A stretch of 51,691 nt of DNA, from sequence record OZ346160.1. One strand, given 5' to 3'. Positions 24,356-44,053 of this stretch are shown piece by piece. A model generated the notes under the pieces. It saw only the letters and a list, made by a program, of their open reading frames with translations. It made no database searches and was not told where the DNA came from. The translations under genes were made by a program, and so were the position numbers. This stretch comes from a phage. Each line of letters starts with the position of its first letter. Position 1 is the first letter of the stretch.

Positions 24356-24390
24356 ACAAAAATCCCCGCACAAGCGGGGATTTTTTTATT
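24356..24390. terminator. bidirectional terminator between ssb and tail fibre
   Basis: A-run, TCCCCGC-acaa-GCGGGGA, T7. Confidence 0.65.
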
Positions 24391-26596
24391 CTGTATCTGT
24401 TGGATTGTTGATTAATTTCGCTACCGCTTTTTTTAGATCCTCTATCTCTTTCTCCATTTTCTCAATTTTGTTTCCCATGTAGACCATAGCGCAAGCCATA
24501 TCAGCCATTATAACGTTATTGTCAAGAGCTAGTGTATCATCTGCTTTGTCAACCACAATCTGACGATCCACATATTCTTCACCTTCATCATTAACGCCTA
24601 TAACATCTGCAAAAATGTCCCCTCCAGGTATTAGCTTTACATATTCAGGATCTATTTTTAACAGATCCTGCGCTATCATCCCGAATCGCTGGATGTTGCT
24701 TCCATTGTATTTAAACATTGTCGGCAGCCACTGCATAACGCGATCATAGCTTTCCTTTCCATCTGTATAAATTATATCGTGCTTTAAATCTCTGTCAGAG
24801 TTAGCGGCCTTTTGAAAAATGAAATTTCCACTTGATGACCATGTGGTTATATCGTTTGATACTGGATTAAAATGGAAGTTACAGAAAAAATCATGATCAC
24901 CACGAAGCCTTAACGAGCAAAGAGGCCATGCATTATTACCTTGTGAGATAAGACCCCAAGTTGCACGAATCGGGTATCCACCAGTTGATTGTGTAGCCCA
25001 AGATAACCCAGGACACCAGCCGCCATCATTATTGGTTATAATTTCACCCCAAACAAGAGCATTACCCCAATAATTTGGATCGTCCCACCCCATTTGTTGA
25101 GTTTTTCCGGTGTATTGAGCAGAATGCGTTTTTCCGTCAGGGTAAAACTTGTGCATATAGCTTTGAACACCATGCTTATACAGTTCAATCCCAAAAGACT
25201 CAATTTGGGCAGCACCACCTCTGATCAAACCTGCGATAGCGTAATCATTATACCAGTGGTACTGGCTTAAACCAGTCCATGCGTTTATCTGTGGGTTCAC
25301 AACTGAAAAGAATCGTGACGGATTGTGATCATTTCCGTCAGCATAAAAACCCTCACCAGGAGCTAAAGCTACCTTTTTTGGACCAGTAAAATTACCATTT
25401 ACATCAAACTGATAATACTGTGATAACCCGTTGTGAAACACACCTATTGTATGCTTTCCTACGCCTACTTGAGTTTCAAAATAAGACTGAGAAGATCCAA
25501 TATCCTCACCTTGTGTATTCTTTAGTGTTGAATGGTATATACCTGCGTTTGCAGTAGTTGCATTTTCCGTTTCGTTTTCAACATTAAGACGCAAAAACTT
25601 TGGTGAATGTTTTTCGCCAAGTCCTATATTGTTTCTGATGCCATTTGCGTCAATAGCTCCAGTGCCACCAGAAGAAATAGCTAAAGGAACAGTTTCAAAT
25701 GACCCAGACCCTGATACGTCCCTCTGGAAAACAAGAAGACCATCATCTCTGATAACAAGCCTATATTCTCTATTTCTAGAGTACAAGATAGTATGCACGT
25801 AGTCCTGAAAAAATGAATCAATGCTAAGCGTCCGGCGAGCTTCATCAATGTCAGAAAGATATTTAAGGTTCTGATCCTTATGCACTAGATTTTCAGGATT
25901 TACCTGTTGCGCCCACTGGCGAGCTTCATCACGCGCAGTTTCAGCGCCAGCCTTTGCATTATTTGCCTCAACGGCATGATTGCCAGCAGTATCGCGCGCC
26001 AGTTCAGCCTGATCGCGAGCATCAAAAGCCTCCTGTTTAATAGCTTCCGTTTCTGCAATAGCAGAATCCTTTATCTGTTGCGTTTGAGTTTTGATTGCGT
26101 CAGTATCCGCTTTAATTTGATTTGACTCAGCGACAGCAGAATCCTTTATCTGTTGAGTGTCATTTTTTAATTGTTCAGTGGCTGCGCGATCTGTTGCTAC
26201 TTGTTGCGCAGATTCCTTAGCTTGATTCACCAGATCCTTTAAGCCATCCAAATCAAAATCTTTAAAAAACTCTATTGCTTCTGCAATTTCTGTTTCCTTG
26301 CTCTGGTAATAACGCAAAGTTTCCGCTACATCCTGCGCAAGCCCGTCAACCGTTAACGAGTCATGAAGCAAGATCAGGTAATTTGTCTTCTGGACTACCG
26401 CGCCGCCAGTAGTAATTGCGCGAATGCTTGTATCGCTAATCACTTCTGTGATCACAGCAGCTTGCAAAGGTTGAGTGAGAAAGAAAATGGTTGCACCTGG
26501 GCGAATCAATGTTAATTGCTCGCGCCATTTTGTGTCGTAACCAGTTACATAACCTTGAGCGTCCATAGACGCTTGGCCTTGTCTGTAAATCGCCAT
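24386..26596 (-). CDS. tail fibre protein with C-terminal intramolecular chaperone (S74-like autoproteolytic) domain
   Basis: Start MAIYRQ with AGGAGG RBS; coiled-coil repeats ([10 protein letters not shown] / [10 protein letters not shown]); C-terminal region has Ser/Lys pair in ANSDRDLK followed by about 120 aa. Confidence 0.7.
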
Positions 26597-26611
26597 TTGT
26601 AAAATCCTCCT

Positions 26612-26646
26612 AAATAGCACTTTTTGCTAATGACAATTCAGATAAT
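26612..26646 (+). promoter_or_regulatory. conserved motif copy adjacent to tail fibre start (inverted relative to that gene)
   Basis: AATAGCACTTTTTGCTAATGAC then GATAAT; on - strand the motif abuts AGGAGG RBS of the tail fibre gene. Confidence 0.4.
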
Positions 26647-27687: not shown

Positions 27688-28164
27688 TTAGCTATTCGTG
27701 CTGTTATCACCTTTGTAGAATCGTCCGCCTGGTTCGTAGTCTGAATTTTTGACTACGCGCAACATTTCGTATTTGTCGCAACGGGTAGTAAGAGGCTTGC
27801 CGTTAGAATCAAACCGCAGATCTGGACGACAAAACGAGGCGCGGTATCCTTTGCATCCATTATATTTGTAGTCGTTATGCACCTTTTGTGCTCCAGCGGC
27901 TGAAATCATACCACGCTTTCGCCACTGGTTAACGACTTGCTGAGATACGCGCAGACGTCGAGCCATAGCAGGAACACCGCCGTAATACTCGATCAGAATG
28001 TCAAGGCGAGATTTTAGGCTTGCTTTTACCTCATCTCGCAGGATAAGAAATCCGGTTCGGTGTTTTCGTGGCTTTTTGTCTTTACCTCGTCGCGTTCCGT
28101 TGTTACCGTTAATAGTGCGCTTGTCGATCTCACCCGTAGATACTGCAATTCGTGCATCTTTCAT
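27688..28164 (-). CDS. HTH DNA-binding protein (putative transcriptional regulator)
   Basis: 158 aa; HTH-like segment GGVPAMARRLRVSQQVVNQWRKRG; basic N-terminus; divergent from helicase gene. Confidence 0.45.
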   Translation of the reverse strand: MKDARIAVSTGEIDKRTINGNNGTRRGKDKKPRKHRTGFLILRDEVKASLKSRLDILIEYYGGVPAMARRLRVSQQVVNQWRKRGMISAAGAQKVHNDYKYNGCKGYRASFCRPDLRFDSNGKPLTTRCDKYEMLRVVKNSDYEPGGRFYKGDNSTNS

Positions 28165-28174
28165 CTAGTCACCT

Positions 28175-28219
28175 CATAGCATTTTTTGTTAAAACAGTTT
28201 ATTGTAATGAGTCTATTAT
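28175..28219 (+). promoter_or_regulatory. cassette copy upstream of helicase
   Basis: CATAGCATTTTTTGTTAAAAC; TATTAT at motif positions 40-45. Confidence 0.5.
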
Positions 28220-28251
28220 ATACTCCAAATGGCATTTTTTAAAGGTTTAAG

Positions 28252-31478: not shown

Positions 31479-31736
31479 ATGGAAAAAGAGAGAAGCGTTT
31501 ATTTAAATGAAACTGGCGAGTGGTTGTTATTTCGCGCTATGGTGTGCGATGCACTTGATAAAAACCCTAACGTGAAAAAGATGATTGATTGCGATCCGTG
31601 GGAATTTTCAAGCGCATTAGATATGAGCTTTGAGGAGACAAGAAAACTCCCGCTTGAAAAATGGCACGAACAAATCAGAAATGACATGCAAGAGTTTGTT
31701 GATTCGTGGAATTTTCAGCACGGAATGATCCACTAA
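31479..31736 (+). CDS. hypothetical protein
   Basis: 85-aa ORF; stop codon embedded in cassette motif. Confidence 0.45.
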   Translation: MEKERSVYLNETGEWLLFRAMVCDALDKNPNVKKMIDCDPWEFSSALDMSFEETRKLPLEKWHEQIRNDMQEFVDSWNFQHGMIH

Positions 31737-31779
31737 TAGCACTTTTTGTTAAAACGCCCGGCCTAGTGTCGGGCATAAT
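31735..31779 (+). promoter_or_regulatory. cassette copy
   Basis: Consensus motif overlapping stop; hairpin GCCCGG..CGGGC; CATAAT at 31774..31779. Confidence 0.55.
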
Positions 31780-31811
31780 TATTTCAACGAAGCAAACATG
31801 AGGAAATAAAA

Positions 31812-31991
31812 ATGGTGGTATTCGATAAACGCGCTTTTAATCTTGCTCAAGAAGTAGCAAAAGGTTCAGTAGAGGGCGGATCAAAGGAAGGATTCCAGTT
31901 TGATTGGGGAATCGCGATGTTCTTACTGAAAGTTGCATACGGTCACGCGCCAATTGAACAAGCGGAGGCATATTATAAGCATGAAGGTTGA
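31812..31991 (+). CDS. hypothetical small protein (59 aa, not in ORF track)
   Basis: ATG preceded by GAGGA; sits one cassette-to-ATG distance downstream of cassette 31735; hand-translated MVVFDKRAFNLAQEV... Confidence 0.35.
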   Translation: MVVFDKRAFNLAQEVAKGSVEGGSKEGFQFDWGIAMFLLKVAYGHAPIEQAEAYYKHEG

Positions 31992-32223
31992 GCAAGGAAG
32001 AGATGCGGTATGGAATCACGCTAAAGAATGCGGTATTGCCGACGATATAAAGAAGATCGCGCAATACTTTGATATTGCAGATGTGAGCATAATTAGCGGC
32101 GACAAGATGACTTTCCTCAAGGAAAGGCCGCGAAAAATGGTAAGAGTTCCAGCAGTTCCAACAAAAATTGATTTCAAAGAGGCAATGGCTAAAATCCGAG
32201 AGCCTCGCAAATATTATAAATGA
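31981..32223 (+). CDS. hypothetical protein
   Basis: Start MKVEQG overlapping previous stop; GGAGG 12 nt upstream. Confidence 0.4.
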   Translation: MKVEQGRDAVWNHAKECGIADDIKKIAQYFDIADVSIISGDKMTFLKERPRKMVRVPAVPTKIDFKEAMAKIREPRKYYK

Positions 32224-32317
32224 GGATAGTTATCATGTGGCGCTTGTTTGTTCTACCGTTACCCGTTATCATCGCTGTTACAGTTATGTACCATATAGTA
32301 ATGAGATAGGTAGCAGA

Positions 32318-33433
32318 ATGAAAAATGTAAAAATTACAGATGAGCAATTCAAGATCGAACGGGCGGCGGGTAAGACATATAAACAGATCGCTCAAGAGTA
32401 CGGGATGAATGTGAGAAGCGTCGAGCGTCGCGCTGCGCGTCTTGCAAAACAAGGACAGGTGTCAACCATTGGAGCGCCTGGTTTTGGTGTTCATGGTGAG
32501 TCAGTAATGACAGACAAAGAAGGCAATATAATCCTCAAGTGGACAAAAACCAGCAAGGACAAAGAGCAATTAGAAGCATTGATGCGCGCAGCAATGGAGG
32601 CGTTTAGCGAGGAAGTGCCGCGATTAGATCCAGTTCCATTGCAGGAGCGTAACTATAATGAAACGCTTTCATTGTATCCGATCTTTGACATGCACTTAGG
32701 AGCTATGGCACATAAGCACGAATGCGGAGAAAATTGGGATACAGCTACGGCTGAGCGCGTTATGAATAACTTTATCGACTATGCTTTGATGTGCGCACCG
32801 GACAGCGAAAAGGCTGTTATCCTGATTGGTGGCGATATGCTGCATAGCGACGGCCTGGAGGCGGTGACACCTGCAAGCGGTCACGTACTTGATCAAGATA
32901 GCCGATATGCAAAATTGGTTTACGTTGCAATCCGTGCAATGCGTCGCGCAATTAATAAAATGCTGTTAAAGCATAAACATGTTGAGGTGCAGATCGTAGA
33001 GGGGAATCACGACCAATCAGGAATGATTTGGCTACGCGCAGCAATGGCGGCAGCATATGAGAACGAGCCGCGCGTTTACGTTGATGTTTCTCCTCGCGTT
33101 GTTCACCACACGCAATACGGAAAAACTTTCCTTGCGTACCATCACGGGCACACAGTGCGCAAACCTGAGACTTTGCTAATGATGTGCGCGTCAGATTGGC
33201 GGGAGGACTTCGGAAACTCAAAAACGATGTATGCGCACGTAGGGCACTGGCATCACCAGACCGTGACAGAAACGTCGCTTGGCATCGTGGAAGTGCATAG
33301 CACCCTGGCGGCAAAAGACGCATACGCCGCGCGCGGTGGCTGGAGATCTCGACGCCGTGCGGCGGTTATCATTTACGACAAAGAGCATGGAGAAGTCGGG
33401 CGATTTGTTCACTATCCAGAAATGATGAATTGA
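32318..33433 (+). CDS. calcineurin-like metallophosphoesterase with N-terminal HTH domain
   Basis: Start MKNVKIT; HTH-like KTYKQIAQEYGMNVRSVERRAARL; phosphoesterase motifs DMH, GGDMLHSD, GNHD, HHGH, GHWHH. Confidence 0.65.
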   Translation: MKNVKITDEQFKIERAAGKTYKQIAQEYGMNVRSVERRAARLAKQGQVSTIGAPGFGVHGESVMTDKEGNIILKWTKTSKDKEQLEALMRAAMEAFSEEVPRLDPVPLQERNYNETLSLYPIFDMHLGAMAHKHECGENWDTATAERVMNNFIDYALMCAPDSEKAVILIGGDMLHSDGLEAVTPASGHVLDQDSRYAKLVYVAIRAMRRAINKMLLKHKHVEVQIVEGNHDQSGMIWLRAAMAAAYENEPRVYVDVSPRVVHHTQYGKTFLAYHHGHTVRKPETLLMMCASDWREDFGNSKTMYAHVGHWHHQTVTETSLGIVEVHSTLAAKDAYAARGGWRSRRRAAVIIYDKEHGEVGRFVHYPEMMN

Positions 33434-33480
33434 TGAATTTTTATTTAAATCAATGACAAATTAAATCAAAAACTTGCAAA

Positions 33481-33510
33481 GGGGCGGCGTTTGTCGCCTC
33501 TTTTTTTTGT
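33481..33510 (+). terminator. terminator-like element before lysis cassette
   Basis: GC-rich imperfect hairpin followed by T8. Confidence 0.4.
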
Positions 33511-33578
33511 TTAATTTTTTACCATGTGCGTTTATCATGCGGTCAATATATTGACTTTAATTAATATGGAGAATAAAA

Positions 33579-33794
33579 ATGAAAGATTTTATTAACGCAG
33601 CTACCGCCGGATCTGGCGGTTCATCTATCGCAAGCGCCGCTACAGGGCAGTTAACCATTGCTATTGCCAGTTTTGTTTTAATGGCTGCATTCGGTGCGTG
33701 GGGCGCTTACCTTCGCTGGCGTGATAGTAAAAAATTCCACGAGGCGATCGAAAAAGGTGATATTCAAAAAGCTATTGAGATCAGGGGCAAGTAA
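33579..33794 (+). CDS. holin (pinholin-like)
   Basis: 71 aa, Gly/Ala-rich hydrophobic segments, charged C-terminus; immediately upstream of SAR endolysin. Confidence 0.55.
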
Positions 33795-34285
33795 TGAGCA
33801 TAAAGAACAGGGTAGCGGCTGCGGCCTTTGGCGTTGCGGTTGCCTTGACTTCTCCACTTCTTGAAGAAATCGAAGGGGTAAGATACAAGCCATACAAAGA
33901 TATTGCGGGGGTATGGACGGTTTGCGCAGGAATCACCGGACCCGATGTTATCCTGGGGAAAACGTACACTAAAAAAGAGTGTGATGCTTTGTTGGCTAAG
34001 CATATCCAGGTTGCCAAAAAGGAAGTTGATAAGCAAGTTAAGGTTGACATTCCTGATAGTATGCGTGCAGCAATGTACTCATTCACTTACAATGCAGGTG
34101 TGGGAGCTTTCAGAAATTCAACAATGCTGAAACTCATCAACCAGGGGAAACTAAAAGATGCTTGCGATCAGCTTTATCGTTGGACGTATTACCACAACCC
34201 CAAAACAGGAAGGCGCGAGAAGTCTAAAGGCTTACTTAACAGGCGCAAGGTCGAATACAAATATTGCACAATGGATCTGAAATGA
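33794..34285 (+). CDS. SAR endolysin (T4-type lysozyme, GH24)
   Basis: Catalytic E-x8-D-x5-T triad ([16 protein letters not shown]); weakly hydrophobic Ala/Gly-rich N-terminal signal-arrest-release segment. Confidence 0.8.
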
Positions 34286-34677
34286 TGAAGAAATTTTTAC
34301 TTACACCAATCGCAATGGCGGTGATCTTGTCTGGATGTTCAAGCGTTACGCCACTGACCGGATTAATCGGCAGTAAGCCGGAAATCACAGCACAGGCTGG
34401 CGCGGAGAACGTGAAGCAGACAGTTGGCATTACAGCAAAGCAGGACGCCAGCACAAAACAGAAAACCACAATAAAGGAATCTTCGGTTGACAAGGTGGAT
34501 ACGTCCAGCAAGAAGGATTTCACAACATCAACCATTCAGGCCAATACCATCAAGGCAGAAAAAATTCAGGTCGTGCAGGGTAATAACGGCAGATGGTACG
34601 ATCCAATAATCATATGCGTGGTTGTGTTCATTGTGCTGATTTGTCTTTACTGGAGGGAAAAGAAAAAGGAGGCTTAA
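34282..34677 (+). CDS. unimolecular spanin (u-spanin)
   Basis: Start MMKKFLL; lipobox LSGCS at N-terminus and single C-terminal transmembrane segment ([16 protein letters not shown]); last gene of lysis cassette. Confidence 0.65.
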
Positions 34678-34693
34678 TGCCTCCTTTATTTTT
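34662..34693. terminator. bidirectional terminator after spanin gene
   Basis: AGGAGGC-ttaat-GCCTCCT followed by TTTATTTTTAT; spanin stop codon lies in loop. Confidence 0.6.
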
Positions 34694-34916
34694 ATGCGTC
34701 GGGCCACATATGAGTTTCGTTTGTTGGCTTGTTCGATTCGTCGTACTGCCTTACTTCAATGCTGCAAGTGTCGCCGTACAGTTCTGCAATCTTGCGCTCA
34801 TTTTCAACCGCCGATTGCTCACTCCATCCAAAATCCCTGTCGTAAATTGTCGGTATTTCAGCAGAAGATCCGTTGTCATGATTATATACGCGAACTACTA
34901 AAAACTTGCTGGACAT
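34692..34916 (-). CDS. hypothetical protein
   Basis: 74-aa ORF downstream of cassette 34953..34997 on - strand. Confidence 0.45.
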   Translation of the reverse strand: MSSKFLVVRVYNHDNGSSAEIPTIYDRDFGWSEQSAVENERKIAELYGDTCSIEVRQYDESNKPTNETHMWPDA

Positions 34917-34952
34917 AATTTTACCTTTTGGTTGTTTCGTTTCGATGAAACA

Positions 34953-34997
34953 AATATACCCGACACTAGGCCGGGCGTTTTAACAAAAAATGCTATT
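34953..34997 (-). promoter_or_regulatory. cassette copy (near-identical inverted copy of 31735..31779)
   Basis: Reverse-complement AATAGCATTTTTTGTTAAAACGCCCGGCCTAGTGTCGGGTATATT. Confidence 0.55.
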
Positions 34998-35113
34998 CCA
35001 TACGCTTTACCGTAACCAGTAATACACCATCATCATTGCATAAAACATGTTCAGTGGTGCTAAAAGCGCGCATATCTGAATAAAGTAGCGTAAGTAAAGC
35101 ATGAATAAAATCC

Positions 35114-35509
35114 TCATGTGATATTGAATTTACGGCGCAGTGCTTCAAGATCTTGTCTATTAGCTTTTGCCTGGAACAATTCATCATCGCCCATCTCCCC
35201 TATTCTCGCCATATCCCTGATCCAGTCGTTGCGCATACCATCCAGGCTATACAATTCGAATCCGAAAGGCCGCTTTGACGATCCTTTGGACCAGTATTTT
35301 CCGCAGACCCCATCTATATAACCAGCCGTCATCATTCTTGCGCAAAATTCCTTAGATGCAAGGCTGGCGAACATTCGCGGCGTAAGTCCGGCGGCCCGTG
35401 CGAGCCGCTCGCATTCTCTATGCTGATAGATAAATTTGGCTATGTGCTGCCTGTTAAACCAGTCGTATGACTCACACCATTTATACAGATCAAGCAAAAA
35501 CATAATCAT
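35114..35509 (-). CDS. hypothetical protein
   Basis: 131 aa, translationally coupled (ATGA) to upstream NTPase gene. Confidence 0.45.
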   Translation of the reverse strand: MIMFLLDLYKWCESYDWFNRQHIAKFIYQHRECERLARAAGLTPRMFASLASKEFCARMMTAGYIDGVCGKYWSKGSSKRPFGFELYSLDGMRNDWIRDMARIGEMGDDELFQAKANRQDLEALRRKFNIT

Positions 35510-39987: not shown

Positions 39988-40032
39988 AATATACCAATCA
40001 GAGGCGCATCGGTTTTAACAAAAAGTGCTATT
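39988..40032 (-). promoter_or_regulatory. cassette copy
   Basis: Consensus motif; hairpin CGATGCGC..GCGCATCG with TATATT in loop. Confidence 0.5.
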
Positions 40033-40309
40033 CAACAACAGATCCAGTTAAAGAGATAAGCCGTCTTGTGATCTTTCGTCTACGATACTTACGCGCAACA
40101 ACCGGAAGATTTTCACCGCTTTGATGCCCAAAAGTGATCGGCAACTCTTCTCCTCCAGACATACCGAACTCAGTGTGTGTTGGTTTGTTCCGCCACCCCT
40201 GGATAAAGCCGAAACGGTCACGAGTTATGTACCTGTAGTTGTTAGGTAGGGGCAATTGTATCCCCTCAAAATCCACTGTGTCGGTGTAGCTGTAAAACTT
40301 AGAACTCAT
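40028..40309 (-). CDS. hypothetical protein
   Basis: Start taken at MSSKFYSY (track gives longer 40028..40360 ORF); the shorter start avoids overlap with the cassette-driven small ORF upstream. Confidence 0.4.
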   Translation of the reverse strand: MSSKFYSYTDTVDFEGIQLPLPNNYRYITRDRFGFIQGWRNKPTHTEFGMSGGEELPITFGHQSGENLPVVARKYRRRKITRRLISLTGSVVE

Positions 40310-40451
40310 AGTCAACAACTCCAAACTCGTTAACGATTTGCGCCTTGTAGAATCCGCCATTTTTCGCCAGGTTGTAACAAGCGGCTACGGTTTCAAATTC
40401 GCGCGCTTCCGGCTGGCTGTTTTCGTGTTCCCAGGTAATCAGAGTAACCAT
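40299..40451 (-). CDS. hypothetical small protein (50 aa, not in ORF track)
   Basis: Hand-translated MVTLITWEHENSQPEAREFE...; GAGGA RBS and leader nearly identical to cassette 40015 leader; coordinates approximate. Confidence 0.35.
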   Translation of the reverse strand: MVTLITWEHENSQPEAREFETVAACYNLAKNGGFYKAQIVNEFGVVDYEF

Positions 40452-40484
40452 TTTCAAATCCTCGCATTCGTTGTCGATGCGTGT

Positions 40485-40529
40485 AATGTACAGGAATACG
40501 AGGATTTAGTTTTAACAAAAAGTGCTATT
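40485..40529 (-). promoter_or_regulatory. cassette copy
   Basis: Consensus motif overlapping stop of 40529..40792; leader nearly identical to 39988..40032 copy. Confidence 0.5.
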
Positions 40530-41834: not shown

Positions 41835-42136
41835 TATTGTTTTGCGTGGCGCTCAATGTAAGCGCGGATAGTTTCAGCGGTGTCTTTCGCAGATCCAAAC
41901 GTGCCCTTTACATGGCGAGCGTCGCGGTAAGCCTGGAAGAATTTACGCGCGATATTTGCAAACATTGCACCAGTAACGCGAGCGTCGCCAAAATTTGTTT
42001 CAATGGCATTGCTGATGCCGTCCTGGAATTCATGCTCAGTCATGAACAGTTCAGCCATTTCTGCGGTTTCGAACAGGTCAGCCAGTGCTGCCATATTCTC
42101 GTGGTCTTTAGCGGTGAACAGGTTCATGTTAATCAT
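41834..42136 (-). CDS. hypothetical protein
   Basis: 100-aa ORF; first gene of - strand array, downstream of cassette 42177..42221. Confidence 0.5.
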   Translation of the reverse strand: MINMNLFTAKDHENMAALADLFETAEMAELFMTEHEFQDGISNAIETNFGDARVTGAMFANIARKFFQAYRDARHVKGTFGSAKDTAETIRAYIERHAKQ

Positions 42137-42176
42137 TGTTTGGTCCTCAGTAAGTGCGGTTCGTTTCGATGTGTGT

Positions 42177-42221
42177 AATGTACCCGATCAGGTGGCCTGA
42201 GTTTTAACAAAAAGTGCTATT
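42177..42221 (-). promoter_or_regulatory. cassette copy (first of - strand array)
   Basis: Consensus motif; TACATT at 40-45. Confidence 0.5.
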
Positions 42222-43550: not shown

Positions 43551-43590
43551 CACTTTTTGTTAAAACGCCAGGCGCAAAGCCTGGCATAAT
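43546..43590 (+). promoter_or_regulatory. cassette copy
   Basis: Consensus motif overlapping stop; perfect hairpin GCCAGGC-gcaaa-GCCTGGC; CATAAT 43585..43590. Confidence 0.55.
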
Positions 43591-43622
43591 AGCCTCATCG
43601 AAACGAGATTGAGGAAACAAAA

Positions 43623-43808
43623 ATGGCACGTCGCATCACCAAAGACCTTAAAGTCCTGAACAAAGAAAACGTAGTTAAAATCCTGGTTATCTGGGGCTAC
43701 AACGAAGAAACAGCAAAGCAGAAGGTAGAGGCAGGTTATGACCTGGCTGTGAAAGCAATGCCAAACGACGACGCCAAAGGCATTGCAAACTATGTAGCTT
43801 TCTTTTAA
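43623..43808 (+). CDS. hypothetical protein
   Basis: 61-aa ORF about 75 nt downstream of cassette. Confidence 0.45.
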   Translation: MARRITKDLKVLNKENVVKILVIWGYNEETAKQKVEAGYDLAVKAMPNDDAKGIANYVAFF

Positions 43809-43823
43809 TTAGCAGGTGAATAA

Positions 43824-44009
43824 ATGAAAACGAAATTAGTCCATAAGTCAGAAATCAAGATCGGCGATACTGTGATTCACAACGGAGAGCTTAGAACGGT
43901 TGGCAAAGAGTCAATAAGCCACGATGAATTTATGGGGATCTTGTTGTTCGGTGACTCTTATCGTCTTGGTTACAAGATGGTTGAGCTTGTGGAAGAAGTG
44001 AAATTCTAA
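43824..44009 (+). CDS. hypothetical protein
   Basis: 61-aa ORF. Confidence 0.45.
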   Translation: MKTKLVHKSEIKIGDTVIHNGELRTVGKESISHDEFMGILLFGDSYRLGYKMVELVEEVKF

Positions 44010-44053
44010 ATAGCACTTTTTGTTAAAACTCAAAAACGATAACCAGGCATAAT
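44009..44053 (+). promoter_or_regulatory. cassette copy
   Basis: Consensus motif after stop TAA; CATAAT 44048..44053; hairpin GGGCG..CGCCC downstream. Confidence 0.5.

What the first reader, a model, noticed from the sequence alone, without database searches (positions are those of the whole stretch)
31735..34997. Near-identical inverted cassette copies bracket the lysis module
Copies at 31735..31779 (+) and 34953..34997 (-) share motif and hairpin almost base for base (AATAGCA(C/T)TTTTTGTTAAAACGCCCGGCCTAGTGTCGGG), whereas other copies have unrelated hairpins. They flank about 3.2 kb holding three small genes, the HTH-metallophosphoesterase, pinholin, SAR endolysin, u-spanin and one - strand gene. 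This could mark a recent duplication or recombination, or a module exchanged by recombination between cassettes.
Basis: seen in the sequence. Interest (0 to 1): 0.5.

Follow-up and report, generated by a model that had tools for sequence, protein, structure and literature searches.

The report
Matching convergent promoter-terminator cassettes, T1-like phage
Two facing copies of a repeated regulatory cassette in a T1-like coliphage carry an identical hairpin, most likely because a short stretch was copied from one copy to the other; the 3.2 kb between them, which includes the lysis genes, is ordinary conserved backbone and not a mobile or invertible module.

Summary
The arms 31735-31796 (+) and 34997-34936 (-) are 89% alike over 62 nt. 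Their 18-nt hairpin spacer is identical (18/18). The other 209 cassette pairs in the window average 5.1/18 and reach at most 11/18.

The window is a Warwickvirus (Drexlerviridae, T1-like). The cassette contains the published "21-nt intergenic repeat" of T1-like phages, whose function is still listed as unknown. Here the repeat is followed at exactly 18 nt by a -10-like hexamer, then a conserved leader, a ribosome-binding site and a start codon. A stem-loop usually lies in the spacer or across the -10. This is the architecture of the PeSL promoter/terminator cassettes of T4-like phages.

The two copies are convergent. Their hairpins are 13-14/18 alike in sister clades and identical only in part of this clade. 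The shared allele occurs at the left site only, the right site only, or both, in near-identical phages. The best explanation is a short (10-31 nt) left-to-right ectopic gene conversion followed by reassortment.

The 3.2 kb between the copies is collinear in every relative examined and is never inverted or exchanged as a unit. Mosaic patches do start at cassettes, but each covers only the adjacent small gene. Interest is modest.

The parts
31735..31755 (+). Left cassette: the 21-nt Drexlerviridae repeat (aATAGCACTTTTTGTTAAAAC). The TAA stop of upstream ORF85 (31734-31736) overlaps its start.
   Evidence: It matches the published consensus aaATAGCACnnnTTGnTAAAA (PMC11447400).
31756..31774 (+). 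Left hairpin GCCCGGC-CTAGT-GTCGGGC. It has a 7-bp stem with one G.U pair and fills the N18 spacer. It is terminator-like, with the tail ATAATTATTT.
   Evidence: terminator-like scan; -13.0 kcal/mol; covariation. The T1 orthologue is annotated as a rho-independent terminator.
31774..31779 (+). A -10-like hexamer, CATAAT, exactly 18 nt after the repeat.
   Evidence: nAnnnT at this fixed distance in 17 of 21 cassettes.
31780..31811 (+). Conserved leader (TTTCAACGAAGCAAAC) and ribosome-binding site upstream of the ORF59 start codon at 31812.
   Evidence: family consensus c.cat..aaac.aa.
31812..31991 (+). ORF59 (phrog_2180, function unknown). It is a swappable allele; the patch 31760-31970 is only 59-65% identical to the otherwise 95-100% identical JLBYU01 and ityhuna.
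31981..33433 (+). ORF80, a 29-codon ORF, and the phosphoesterase / DNA repair exonuclease (32318-33433) with an N-terminal HTH. This is conserved backbone.
33478..33503 (+). Strong intrinsic-terminator-like hairpin between the phosphoesterase and holin genes.
   Evidence: It is annotated as a terminator in phage Sip.
33579..34677 (+). Lysis genes: holin 33579-33794, endolysin 33794-34285, spanin 34282-34677.
   Evidence: and the annotation of relatives.
34665..34687 (.). Bidirectional terminator (AAAGGAGGCTTAATGCCTCCTTT) at the point where the + and - strand transcription units converge.
   Evidence: It is annotated in Sip and T1.
34692..34916 (-). ORF74 (phrog_27210, function unknown), driven by the right cassette. 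This slot holds an unrelated gene in phiE31-2, L013 and L020.
34917..34958 (-). Right cassette: the -10-like TATATT (34958-34953), the leader TTTCATCGAAACGAAAC and the ribosome-binding site.
34958..34976 (-). Right hairpin GCCCGGC-CTAGT-GTCGGGT. Its spacer is identical to the left one. It is terminator-like, with the tail ATATTTGTTT.
34977..34997 (-). Right cassette: the 21-nt repeat (aATAGCATTTTTTGTTAAAAC). Its TAG is the stop codon of upstream ORF64 (34993-35187, -).

Best explanation
The two copies are convergent members of the family of about 21 regulatory cassettes that punctuate this T1-like (Warwickvirus) genome.

Each cassette has these parts, in order:
- the stop codon of the upstream gene;
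- the known 21-nt Drexlerviridae repeat, at about -51 to -31;
- an 18-nt spacer;
- a -10-like hexamer;
- a conserved leader, a ribosome-binding site and the start codon.
A GC-rich stem-loop usually lies in the spacer or across the -10.

Inferred function: the repeat plus the -10 is a promoter for the downstream gene. It has no sigma-70 -35 match, so it probably needs a factor that binds the repeat. The stem-loop, with the U-rich -10 region as its tail, attenuates or terminates transcripts arriving from upstream. This is the composite promoter/terminator logic of T4-type PeSLs.

The left cassette heads ORF59, ORF80 and the phosphoesterase gene. The right cassette heads ORF74 on the other strand. 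The two units meet at a bidirectional terminator (34665-34687).

The extra similarity of this pair has two layers. First, the left (L) and right (R) stem-loops belong to one hairpin lineage: they are 13/18 alike in Hanrivervirus and 14/18 alike in the swan01 clade. Second, in one Warwickvirus sublineage the left allele GCCCGGCCTAGTGTCGGG overwrote the right one. This was a short non-crossover ectopic conversion of at least 10 and at most 31 nt, because the C/T difference in the repeat and the CATAAT/TATATT difference in the -10 were both kept. Left and right alleles then reassorted among co-circulating phages through crossovers in the conserved cassette arms, probably using the phage's own RecE/Erf-type annealing system.

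Shown here: the anatomy, the covariation, the allele distribution and the positions of the breakpoints. Inferred: promoter activity, terminator activity, and the direction and mechanism of the conversion.
For: Anatomy: there are 21 copies, all followed by an ORF start. The -10-like nAnnnT lies at exactly N18 in 17 of 21 copies, and two more are offset by 1 nt. Neither copy is called as a sigma-70 promoter because neither has a -35 match.

Hairpins: 13 of 21 cassettes fold at -10 kcal/mol or better, against 24% of random 50-mers (Mann-Whitney p = 0.0013). The stems lie in the spacer or span the -10. Both L and R hairpins are flagged as terminator-like. In the T1 RefSeq record, 4 of 19 annotated rho-independent terminators are cassette hairpins directly after the repeat, and one of them is the L orthologue.

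Covariation across 17 distinct L/R variants: 96.6% of cells are paired, 3 of 7 pairs carry double compensatory changes, and a G.U pair is tolerated on the sense strand only.

Allele history:
- R outside Warwickvirus is [A/T]CCCGATCT[C/T]GTATCGGG, with single-base variants in L010 and L013.
- R in the swan01 clade is TCCCGACCTTGTGTCGGG, already L-like at positions 7, 10 and 13.
- R in the window equals L.
- L differs from Hanrivervirus L by 1 nt. R differs from swan01-type R by 3 nt, and all three changes are towards L.
- The allele occurs at L only in tunus and tonnikala, at R only in JLBYU38, EcoS-95 and L023, and at both in MikeNSara, Poky and the window.
- Of 36 phage records with the exact 31-mer, 20 have it twice and 16 once.

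Crossovers inside cassettes: JLBYU38 combines a swan01-type spacer with window-type ORF59, and tunus shows the reverse combination.

Genome-wide: 12 of 36 patch boundaries (vs JLBYU01) and 9 of 32 (vs tunus) lie within 30 nt of a cassette. Random placement gives 2.0 and 1.7, and 0 of 5000 permutations reached the observed counts. Three cassette-plus-gene units (497, 387 and 463 nt) are present here and absent from JLBYU01, each with its junction inside one hybrid cassette.

The relatives are annotated with exonuclease VIII, an Erf-like annealing protein and SSB. The PeSL architecture is described in PMC2839356.
Against: No transcript data exist for any of these phages in the searched literature, so promoter and terminator activity rest on sequence alone.

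The U-tracts after the hairpins are imperfect (ATAATTATTT and ATATTTGTTT). Eight of 21 cassettes lack a strong hairpin.

The factor that would replace -35 recognition is not identified.

The conversion direction rests on parsimony over about 20 genomes that recombine heavily. Positions 6 (A/G) and 10 (A) also vary independently in other backgrounds: NorthRox and Sip at L, L012 at R, and L013 at R. Some of the convergence could therefore be recurrent mutation.

The enrichment of breakpoints at cassettes was tested against random placement, not against intergenic regions that lack cassettes.
Confidence: 0.68

Rival explanations
1. Parallel point mutation under a shared constraint, with no physical exchange between the two sites. 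Both hairpins do the same job, for example as terminators of similar strength or as the target of one RNA-binding factor. Selection keeps them in a narrow sequence space, and in this clade they happened to reach the same sequence.
For: L (Hanrivervirus type) and R (swan01 type) were already 16/18 alike, so only a few steps are needed. Position 6 flips between A and G at both sites in different phages. The loop A at position 10 also appears in L013 R, on a different stem. The stem is clearly under structural selection.
Against: R needs three specific changes (positions 1, 6 and 10). One is in the loop and one is at a closing pair that is unpaired in the swan01 clade, so structure does not dictate either of them. 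All three land on the L state. The earlier Warwickvirus R changes at positions 7, 10 and 13 also all match L. Cassettes demonstrably recombine with each other in this genome.
Confidence: 0.15
2. Shared operator. The imperfect DNA palindrome GCCCGGC-N5-GTCGGGC in both promoters is the binding site of one dimeric regulator that co-regulates the two convergent units. Identity is maintained by selection on protein binding.
For: The R hairpin sequence, including much of its loop, is conserved from T1-like phages to Tlsvirus. L and R share CCCG..../....CGGG in all genera. Both sit between the repeat and the -10, where a repressor would block RNA polymerase.
Against: Double compensatory substitutions at three stem positions fit a folded strand better than a protein half-site, and so does a G.T pair that is tolerated on the sense strand only. 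Other cassettes carry unrelated hairpins at variable positions. T1 annotators called these hairpins terminators. No candidate regulator is linked to them.
Confidence: 0.1
3. One reading: the inverted copies are the ends of a 3.2-kb unit that moves, inverts, or is swapped as a whole between phages.
For: It is the longest inverted repeat in the window. A crossover between the arms would give a viable inversion, because each gene would still follow a cassette promoter. This last point is inference.
Against: The segment is collinear, in the same orientation, in all loci examined from six genera or groups. 110 records cover at least 80% of the 6-kb region in one place on one strand. The predicted inversion junction is absent from all 341 matching phage records. 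Identity to close relatives does not change at the two cassettes as a block; only gene-sized patches next to each cassette differ. Pfam finds no recombinase or transposase among the small ORFs and the phosphoesterase of the segment, and relatives annotate its remaining genes as holin, endolysin and spanin. The core module is present in 508 of 522 Drexlerviridae (PMC13164509).
Confidence: 0.03

Closest known systems
The 21-nt intergenic direct repeats of T1-like phages (TLS 'DR' elements; German, Kropinski, Misra et al. 2024, PMC11447400)
   Same: Same sequence: consensus aaATAGCACnnnTTGnTAAAA. [quoted passage not shown] The paper reports them in TLS, T1, Rtp and Rogue1. The two copies in this finding are members of this family.
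   Different: The paper treats the element as a 21-nt repeat of unknown function and offers stoperator, enhancer-site or UP-element ideas. Several features seen here are absent from the paper's transcription-elements section and from the other passages I searched (I did not read the whole text or its supplementary table): the fixed N18 distance to a -10-like hexamer, the conserved leader, the embedded stem-loops, the role as mosaic junctions, and sequence exchange between copies.
PeSL (promoter-early stem-loop) cassettes of T4-type phages (Arbiol et al. 2010, PMC2839356; Comeau et al. 2014, PMC4122927)
   Same: The layout is the same: upstream stop codon, A/T-rich segment, promoter, Shine-Dalgarno sequence and start codon, with a stem-loop (G-T pairs allowed) either between the upstream promoter element and the -10 or overlapping the -10. 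There are many copies per genome, mostly ahead of small genes of unknown function. Copies act as recombination points that create insertions, deletions and replacements between close relatives.
   Different: There is no sequence relationship, and the phage family is different (siphovirus, 50 kb). PeSLs carry consensus sigma-70 -35 and -10 boxes, whereas here the -35 position is occupied by a family-specific 21-nt motif with no -35 match. PeSL promoter and terminator activities and mini-circles were shown experimentally; nothing has been tested here. The present case also involves ectopic conversion between inverted copies, which the PeSL sections I read (abstracts and section 13) do not mention.
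Activator-dependent phage middle promoters (T4 MotA/AsiA type); this comparison rests on my own knowledge, not on a tool result
   Same: A host-type -10 is combined with a phage-specific box in place of the -35 element, repeated in front of many non-structural genes.
   Different: No MotA or AsiA homologue was looked for or found. The motif is longer (about 20 nt, -51 to -31) and partly palindromic (TAGCA-N5-TG[C/T]TA). Dependence on a phage protein is untested.
Concerted evolution by ectopic gene conversion between dispersed repeats (general mechanism; own knowledge)
   Same: A short non-crossover transfer makes two dispersed, inverted repeats identical while their flanks stay distinct.
   Different: The tract is very short (10-31 nt). 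It lies between homology arms of only about 13-20 nt, which suggests a single-strand-annealing recombinase or template switching rather than RecA-type conversion.

Membership tests
Drexlerviridae 21-nt intergenic repeat (TLS DR family) | Matches the consensus aaATAGCACnnnTTGnTAAAA | tested here: met
   L has 0 mismatches and R has 1 mismatch to ATAGCACTTTTTGTTAAAAC. The consensus is from PMC11447400.
Drexlerviridae 21-nt intergenic repeat (TLS DR family) | Intergenic, oriented with the downstream gene, about 76 nt upstream of its start codon | tested here: met
   L repeat start 31736 to ATG 31812 is 76 nt. R repeat start 34996 to ATG 34916 is 80 nt. Both point towards the gene they precede.
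Drexlerviridae 21-nt intergenic repeat (TLS DR family) | Host genome is a T1-like phage | tested here: met
   98-99% identical to Warwickvirus phages MikeNSara, tiwna and tonijn.
PeSL-type composite promoter/terminator cassette | Consensus sigma-70 -35 and -10 boxes | tested here: not met
   The -10-like hexamer is present (CATAAT, TATATT). The hexamer 17-18 nt upstream (TAAAAC) matches TTGACA at only 2 of 6 positions. The promoter scan calls neither copy. It therefore works like a PeSL but is not filed as one.
PeSL-type composite promoter/terminator cassette | Stem-loop between the upstream element and the -10, or overlapping the -10 | tested here: met
   the stem lies in the spacer in 5 cassettes, including L and R, and spans the -10 in about 8 others. 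Covariation supports the L/R stem.
PeSL-type composite promoter/terminator cassette | Begins at the upstream stop codon and ends at the SD and start codon of the next gene | tested here: met
   The ORF85 TAA stop overlaps the start of the L repeat. The ORF64 TAG stop is the TAG of the R repeat. An RBS and ATG follow both.
PeSL-type composite promoter/terminator cassette | Copies are junctions of indels and replacements between close relatives | tested here: met
   (12/36 and 9/32 boundaries at cassettes against about 2 expected). (three cassette-to-cassette indels). (ORF59 and ORF74 slots).
PeSL-type composite promoter/terminator cassette | Demonstrated promoter and terminator activity; mini-circle formation | not testable with these tools
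   This needs reporter assays, transcript end mapping, and PCR or long reads on lysates.
Intrinsic (rho-independent) terminator | GC-rich stem-loop directly followed by a U-rich tract | tested here: inconclusive
   Both hairpins pass the consensus scan (7 pairs, 5-6 G-C pairs, at least 5 T in 8), and the T1 orthologue is annotated as a terminator. However, the T-tracts are interrupted and activity is untested.
Invertible DNA segment (Gin/Hin/Cin type) or transposable element with terminal inverted repeats | Site-specific recombinase or transposase associated with the repeats | tested here: not met
   The seven proteins submitted (ORF59, ORF80, phosphoesterase, ORF74 and the flanking ORF85, ORF64 and a 131-aa ORF) give no recombinase or transposase Pfam hit; holin, endolysin and spanin were not scanned and are identified from relatives' annotation. 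The PHROG hits are unknown function or DNA repair exonuclease.
Invertible DNA segment (Gin/Hin/Cin type) or transposable element with terminal inverted repeats | Both orientations, or presence/absence of the whole unit, among relatives | tested here: not met
   Only one orientation is seen. The inversion junction is absent from 341 matching records.

The most novel reading that the evidence does not exclude
The "21-nt repeats of unknown function" of T1-like phages may be the upstream half of a second, independently evolved PeSL-like system. In this reading they are composite promoter/terminator cassettes of about 62-75 nt. The promoter uses a family-specific, partly palindromic box in place of a -35 element, presumably read by a still unidentified phage or host factor. 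The cassettes would also be the main substrates for gene gain, loss and replacement in Drexlerviridae, and they would exchange sequence with each other ectopically, even between inverted copies 3 kb apart. The identical pair in this finding would be a caught-in-the-act example.
Probability: 0.5. Interest if true: 0.5.

Novelty: new member of a known kind. Interest (0 to 1): 0.35.

Why it matters
As a finding about the lysis module it matters little. The module is ordinary and stable.

As a window on the cassettes it has some value. A 2024 paper on phage TLS lists the function of the 21-nt repeats of T1-like phages as an open question. The anatomy found here gives a concrete, testable answer: a promoter/terminator cassette that doubles as a recombination linker. 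The supporting features are:
- the fixed N18 distance to a -10-like hexamer;
- embedded stem-loops that covary;
- overlap with terminators already annotated in T1;
- breakpoints and precise indels at the cassettes;
- transfer of a hairpin allele between two sites.

If confirmed, this would improve annotation of promoters and terminators in several hundred Drexlerviridae genomes. It would explain their fine-scale mosaicism, and it would point to natural insertion sites for engineering these phages.

Tried and rejected
- Mobile or invertible 3.2-kb module: rejected.
- Duplication of a larger gene-containing unit: rejected. Similarity ends after 62 nt, and ORF59 and ORF74 are unrelated.
- Canonical sigma-70 promoter using TTGTTA as the -35: rejected. 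That spacer would be 22 nt, and the scan does not call it.
- Extended -10 (TGnTAAAAC) inside the repeat: rejected. The hexamer lacks the final T, no conserved element lies 17 nt upstream of it, and this reading would not explain the conserved hexamer at N18.
- Sigma-54 promoter: considered from memory because TAGCAC-N3-TTGC resembles TGGCAC-N5-TTGC. Rejected because the spacing is 2 nt too short and GG is replaced by AG.
- Known RNA family or tRNA: none in the window.
- Literature search for the motif string, for Drexlerviridae promoters or transcription start sites, and for PeSL in T1-like phages: nothing beyond the TLS paper.
- Candidate binder of the repeat: not resolved. The phosphoesterase N-terminus has only a sub-threshold Sigma70_r4_2 hit (E = 0.002). 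The 158-aa Cro/YdaS-like regulator (27688-28164, - strand) is a candidate only by annotation.
- A resemblance of TAGCA-N5-TGCTA to the E. coli Lrp consensus YAGHAWATTWTDCTR is recalled from memory and was not tested.
- One Python call was an aborted stub, and two others failed on a file path and a division by zero. They were rerun.

Full report
**What the window is**

The 6-kb region around the finding is 98-99% identical to Escherichia phages MikeNSara, NorthRox, Sip, tiwna and tonijn, which are Drexlerviridae of subfamily Tempevirinae and genus Warwickvirus. The window is therefore a T1-like virulent siphovirus genome of about 51.7 kb.

**Checking the observation**

They are 42/45 identical over the stated coordinates and share an exact 31-mer. 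The repeat finder lists them as the longest inverted repeat in the window: 62 nt, 89% identity, 3139 nt apart.

A pattern search finds 21 copies of the motif ATAGCACTTTTTGTTAAAAC with at most 4 mismatches, on both strands. Each is followed by an 18-nt variable spacer. For this pair the spacers are 18/18 identical. Over all 210 pairs the mean is 5.1 (sd 2.3), and the next best pair scores 11/18. Over 62 nt the pair scores 55 against a next best of 48.

The listed gene content is also right. One correction applies. A strong terminator-like hairpin at 33478-33503 lies between the phosphoesterase gene and the holin gene. The left cassette therefore heads ORF59, ORF80 and the phosphoesterase gene, not the lysis genes as such.

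**What the cassette is**

The motif is already in the literature. A 2024 reannotation of phage TLS describes 18 intergenic 21-nt repeats with consensus aaATAGCACnnnTTGnTAAAA. They lie in the direction of transcription, about 76 nt upstream of start codons, and are also present in T1, Rtp and Rogue1. Their function is listed among the open questions for T1-like phages, with stoperators, enhancer sites and UP elements offered as ideas (PMC11447400).

In this window the repeat is only the first part of a longer unit.
- A -10-like hexamer (nAnnnT) follows at exactly 18 nt in 17 of 21 copies, and two more are offset by one base.
- After the hexamer comes a conserved leader (about CATCGAAACGAA), then a ribosome-binding site and an ATG.
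- No acceptable -35 hexamer lies 16-18 nt upstream of the -10, and the sigma-70 scan calls neither copy.
- If these are promoters, the repeat (about -51 to -31) must substitute for -35 recognition.
- The core of the repeat is a 15-bp near-palindrome, TAGCA-N5-TG[C/T]TA, which suggests a dimeric DNA-binding protein. I could not identify that protein.

**The hairpins**

Thirteen of the 21 cassettes fold at -10 kcal/mol or better within 50 nt of the end of the repeat, against 24% of random 50-mers from the window (p = 0.0013). The stem lies either inside the N18 spacer, as in L and R, or spans the -10.

Both L and R hairpins pass a consensus terminator scan. They have 7-bp stems and the tails ATAATTATTT and ATATTTGTTT, so the -10 region doubles as the U-rich tail.

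In the T1 reference record, 4 of the 19 annotated rho-independent terminators lie immediately after the 20-nt motif. One of them (39998-40024) is the orthologue of the L hairpin.

Across 17 distinct L/R hairpin variants collected from relatives, 96.6% of cells pair. Three of the seven stem pairs carry double compensatory substitutions (G-C/A-U, C-G/A-U, C-G/U-A). One pair alternates between A-U and G.U, which works only on the sense strand. The stem-loop is therefore under selection as a folded sense-strand structure, most simply as RNA.

**Closest analogue**

This layout is what Arbiol et al. describe for the PeSL cassettes of T4-type phages: upstream stop codon, A/T-rich box, promoter elements, a stem-loop between or across them with G-T pairs allowed, then a Shine-Dalgarno sequence and a start codon. 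In that system the promoter and terminator activities and recombination between copies were shown experimentally (PMC2839356; PMC4122927). No paper in the searched library links PeSLs with T1-like phages.

**The pair in its setting**

The two copies face each other.
- L drives + strand genes from 31812.
- R drives the 74-aa gene from 34916 on the - strand.
- The two units meet at a bidirectional terminator, 34665-34687, which overlaps the spanin stop codon.
- The upstream stop codons are embedded in the repeats: the TAA of ORF85 at L, and the TAG of ORF64 at R.

**Is the 3.2-kb segment a unit of exchange or inversion?**

It is not.
- Gene order and orientation are the same in Warwickvirus, Hanrivervirus, Changchunvirus, Tlsvirus, a Klebsiella phage and T1.
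- 110 phage records cover at least 80% of the 6-kb region in one collinear place.
- A synthetic query for the junction an inversion would create (ORF85, cassette, ORF74) has no single-place match covering at least 80% in any of 341 matching records.
- A published pangenome finds the exonuclease-holin-endolysin-spanin module in 508 of 522 Drexlerviridae (PMC13164509).
- Sliding identity against JLBYU01 and ityhuna, which are about 95-96% identical overall, stays at 91-100% through the segment. The exceptions are one patch at about 31760-31970 (59-65%), covering the L spacer and ORF59, and a dip to 87-88% in ORF74.

**How the pair became identical**

Orthologous cassettes from 20 genomes and viral contigs show the following.

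| Site and clade | Hairpin spacer |
|---|---|
| R in T1-like, Hanrivervirus, Changchunvirus and Tlsvirus | [A/T]CCCGATCT[C/T]GTATCGGG (single-base variants in L010 and L013) |
| L in Hanrivervirus | GCCCGGCCTTGTGTCGGG (13/18 to its own R) |
| R in the Warwickvirus swan01 clade | TCCCGACCTTGTGTCGGG |
| L and R in the window's clade | GCCCGGCCTAGTGTCGGG |

The swan01-clade R differs from the family-wide R at positions 7, 10 and 13, and all three changes are towards the L state. In that clade L and R are 14/18 alike. The window's shared allele is one change away from Hanrivervirus L and three changes away from swan01-type R, all three again towards L.

The neighbouring differences were kept: ATAGCAC vs ATAGCAT in the repeat, and CATAAT vs TATATT in the -10. 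The transferred tract is therefore between 10 and 31 nt.

The shared allele is polymorphic among phages that are otherwise 96-99% identical.
- L only: tunus and tonnikala.
- R only: JLBYU38, EcoS-95 and IMG/VR contig L023.
- Both: MikeNSara, Poky and the window.
- One-base variants: NorthRox, Sip, EC167 and L012.

Of the 36 phage records holding the exact 31-mer, 20 hold it twice and 16 once. Spacer and downstream gene also reassort. JLBYU38 combines a swan01-type L spacer with window-type ORF59, and tunus shows the opposite combination. Crossovers therefore occur inside the cassette on both sides of the hairpin.

The most economical reading is repeated short-tract L-to-R ectopic conversion, followed by homologous reassortment at each site. 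Relatives are annotated with an exonuclease VIII (RecE-like), an Erf-like annealing protein and SSB. Such a system would suit exchange across homology this short, but this step is inference.

**Cassettes as recombination points across the genome**

Divergent patches were defined as stretches below 80% identity in 40-nt windows. Against JLBYU01, 12 of 36 patch boundaries lie within 30 nt of a cassette. Against tunus, 9 of 32 do. Random placement gives 2.0 and 1.7, and 0 of 5000 permutations reach the observed counts.

Three patches are bounded on both sides by neighbouring cassettes in the same orientation. Each is a precise cassette-plus-gene unit present in the window and absent from JLBYU01, with the junction inside a single hybrid cassette:

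| Window coordinates | Unit length |
|---|---|
| 40032-40528 | 497 nt |
| 41835-42220 | 387 nt |
| 43566-44010 | 463 nt |

The slot after R holds an unrelated gene in phiE31-2 and two IMG/VR contigs. It is bounded by the cassette leader and the bidirectional terminator. It does not apply to this inverted pair.

One caveat applies to the permutation test. The null model was random placement, not intergenic regions lacking cassettes.

**Rival explanations**

- Parallel mutation under a shared structural constraint cannot be excluded, because positions 6 and 10 also vary elsewhere. It requires three coincident changes towards L, on top of three earlier ones.
- A shared protein operator fits the covariation and the strand-specific G.T pair less well.
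- The mobile or invertible module reading is contradicted by all the comparative data.

**Verdict**

It reflects concerted evolution between two convergent members of a known repeat family, not a mobile lysis module. The wider lead is worth a modest follow-up: the T1-like "21-nt repeats" look like the promoter half of PeSL-like promoter/terminator cassettes that also serve as recombination linkers. Promoter and terminator activity, the factor that reads the repeat, and the conversion mechanism all remain untested.

Noticed in passing
window 40032-40528, 41835-42220, 43566-44010: Three cassette-plus-small-gene units (497, 387 and 463 nt) are present here and precisely absent from phage JLBYU01. 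In JLBYU01 a single hybrid cassette marks each junction, which indicates gain or loss by recombination between neighbouring cassettes in the same orientation.
   Followed up: yes
window 34692-34918, both strands: Two mirror ORFs of 74 aa each occupy the same stretch on opposite strands. The - strand one matches phrog_27210 and has the cassette, RBS and ATG upstream. Some GenBank records (for example EC167) annotate the + strand one instead, which is probably a mis-annotation.
   Followed up: partly
window 27688-28251: A 158-aa Cro/YdaS-like HTH protein (phrog_2856, 'transcriptional regulator') lies on the - strand. It is preceded by the best sigma-70-like promoter of the 28-38 kb region (TTTAAA-17-TATAAT, 28243-28215), which is divergent from cassette 28176 (+). 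It is a candidate early regulator that might read the 21-nt repeat, but this was not tested.
   Followed up: partly
window 32318-32460 (N-terminus of the phosphoesterase): The DNA repair exonuclease / metallophosphoesterase carries an N-terminal helix-turn-helix with a weak, sub-threshold resemblance to sigma-70 region 4 (Pfam Sigma70_r4_2, E = 0.002). Its annotated start codon differs between relatives (371, 398 or 421 aa).
   Followed up: partly
all 21 cassettes, e.g. window 31737-31751: The core of the 21-nt repeat is a 15-bp near-palindrome, TAGCA-N5-TG[C/T]TA, and it is perfect in the GAA/TAA variants. From memory it resembles the E. coli Lrp consensus YAGHAWATTWTDCTR. This suggests a dimeric protein binds it.
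   Followed up: no
cassettes at window 40528 and 40031 (- strand): In some cassettes the spacer upstream of the -10 is complementary to sequence downstream of it. At 40528, AAATCCTCG pairs with CGAGGATTT at the ribosome-binding site. At 40031, CGATGCGC pairs with GCGCATCG. Read-through transcripts from upstream, but not transcripts started at the cassette, could therefore have an occluded RBS.
   Followed up: no
relatives EC167, BEK12A/BEK26, mar001J1 (between ORF80 and the phosphoesterase gene); tonnikala (next to the R slot); T1 (after the exonuclease gene): HNH homing-endonuclease genes are inserted at different points of this region in different relatives. Repair after endonuclease cutting could contribute to the local conversion tracts.
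   Followed up: no
window 26031-26179: Two adjacent 74-nt direct repeats (70% identical) lie inside the 744-aa tail-fibre-like gene (24386-26620, - strand). They correspond to a repeated coiled-coil segment (…IKDSA…).
   Followed up: no
L and R loops, window 31763-31767 and 34969-34965: The derived T-to-A change shared by both hairpins creates the palindrome CTAG in the loop. The same change appears independently in the R hairpin of IMG/VR contig L013, on a different stem. It is unexplained whether this loop sequence is selected.
   Followed up: no
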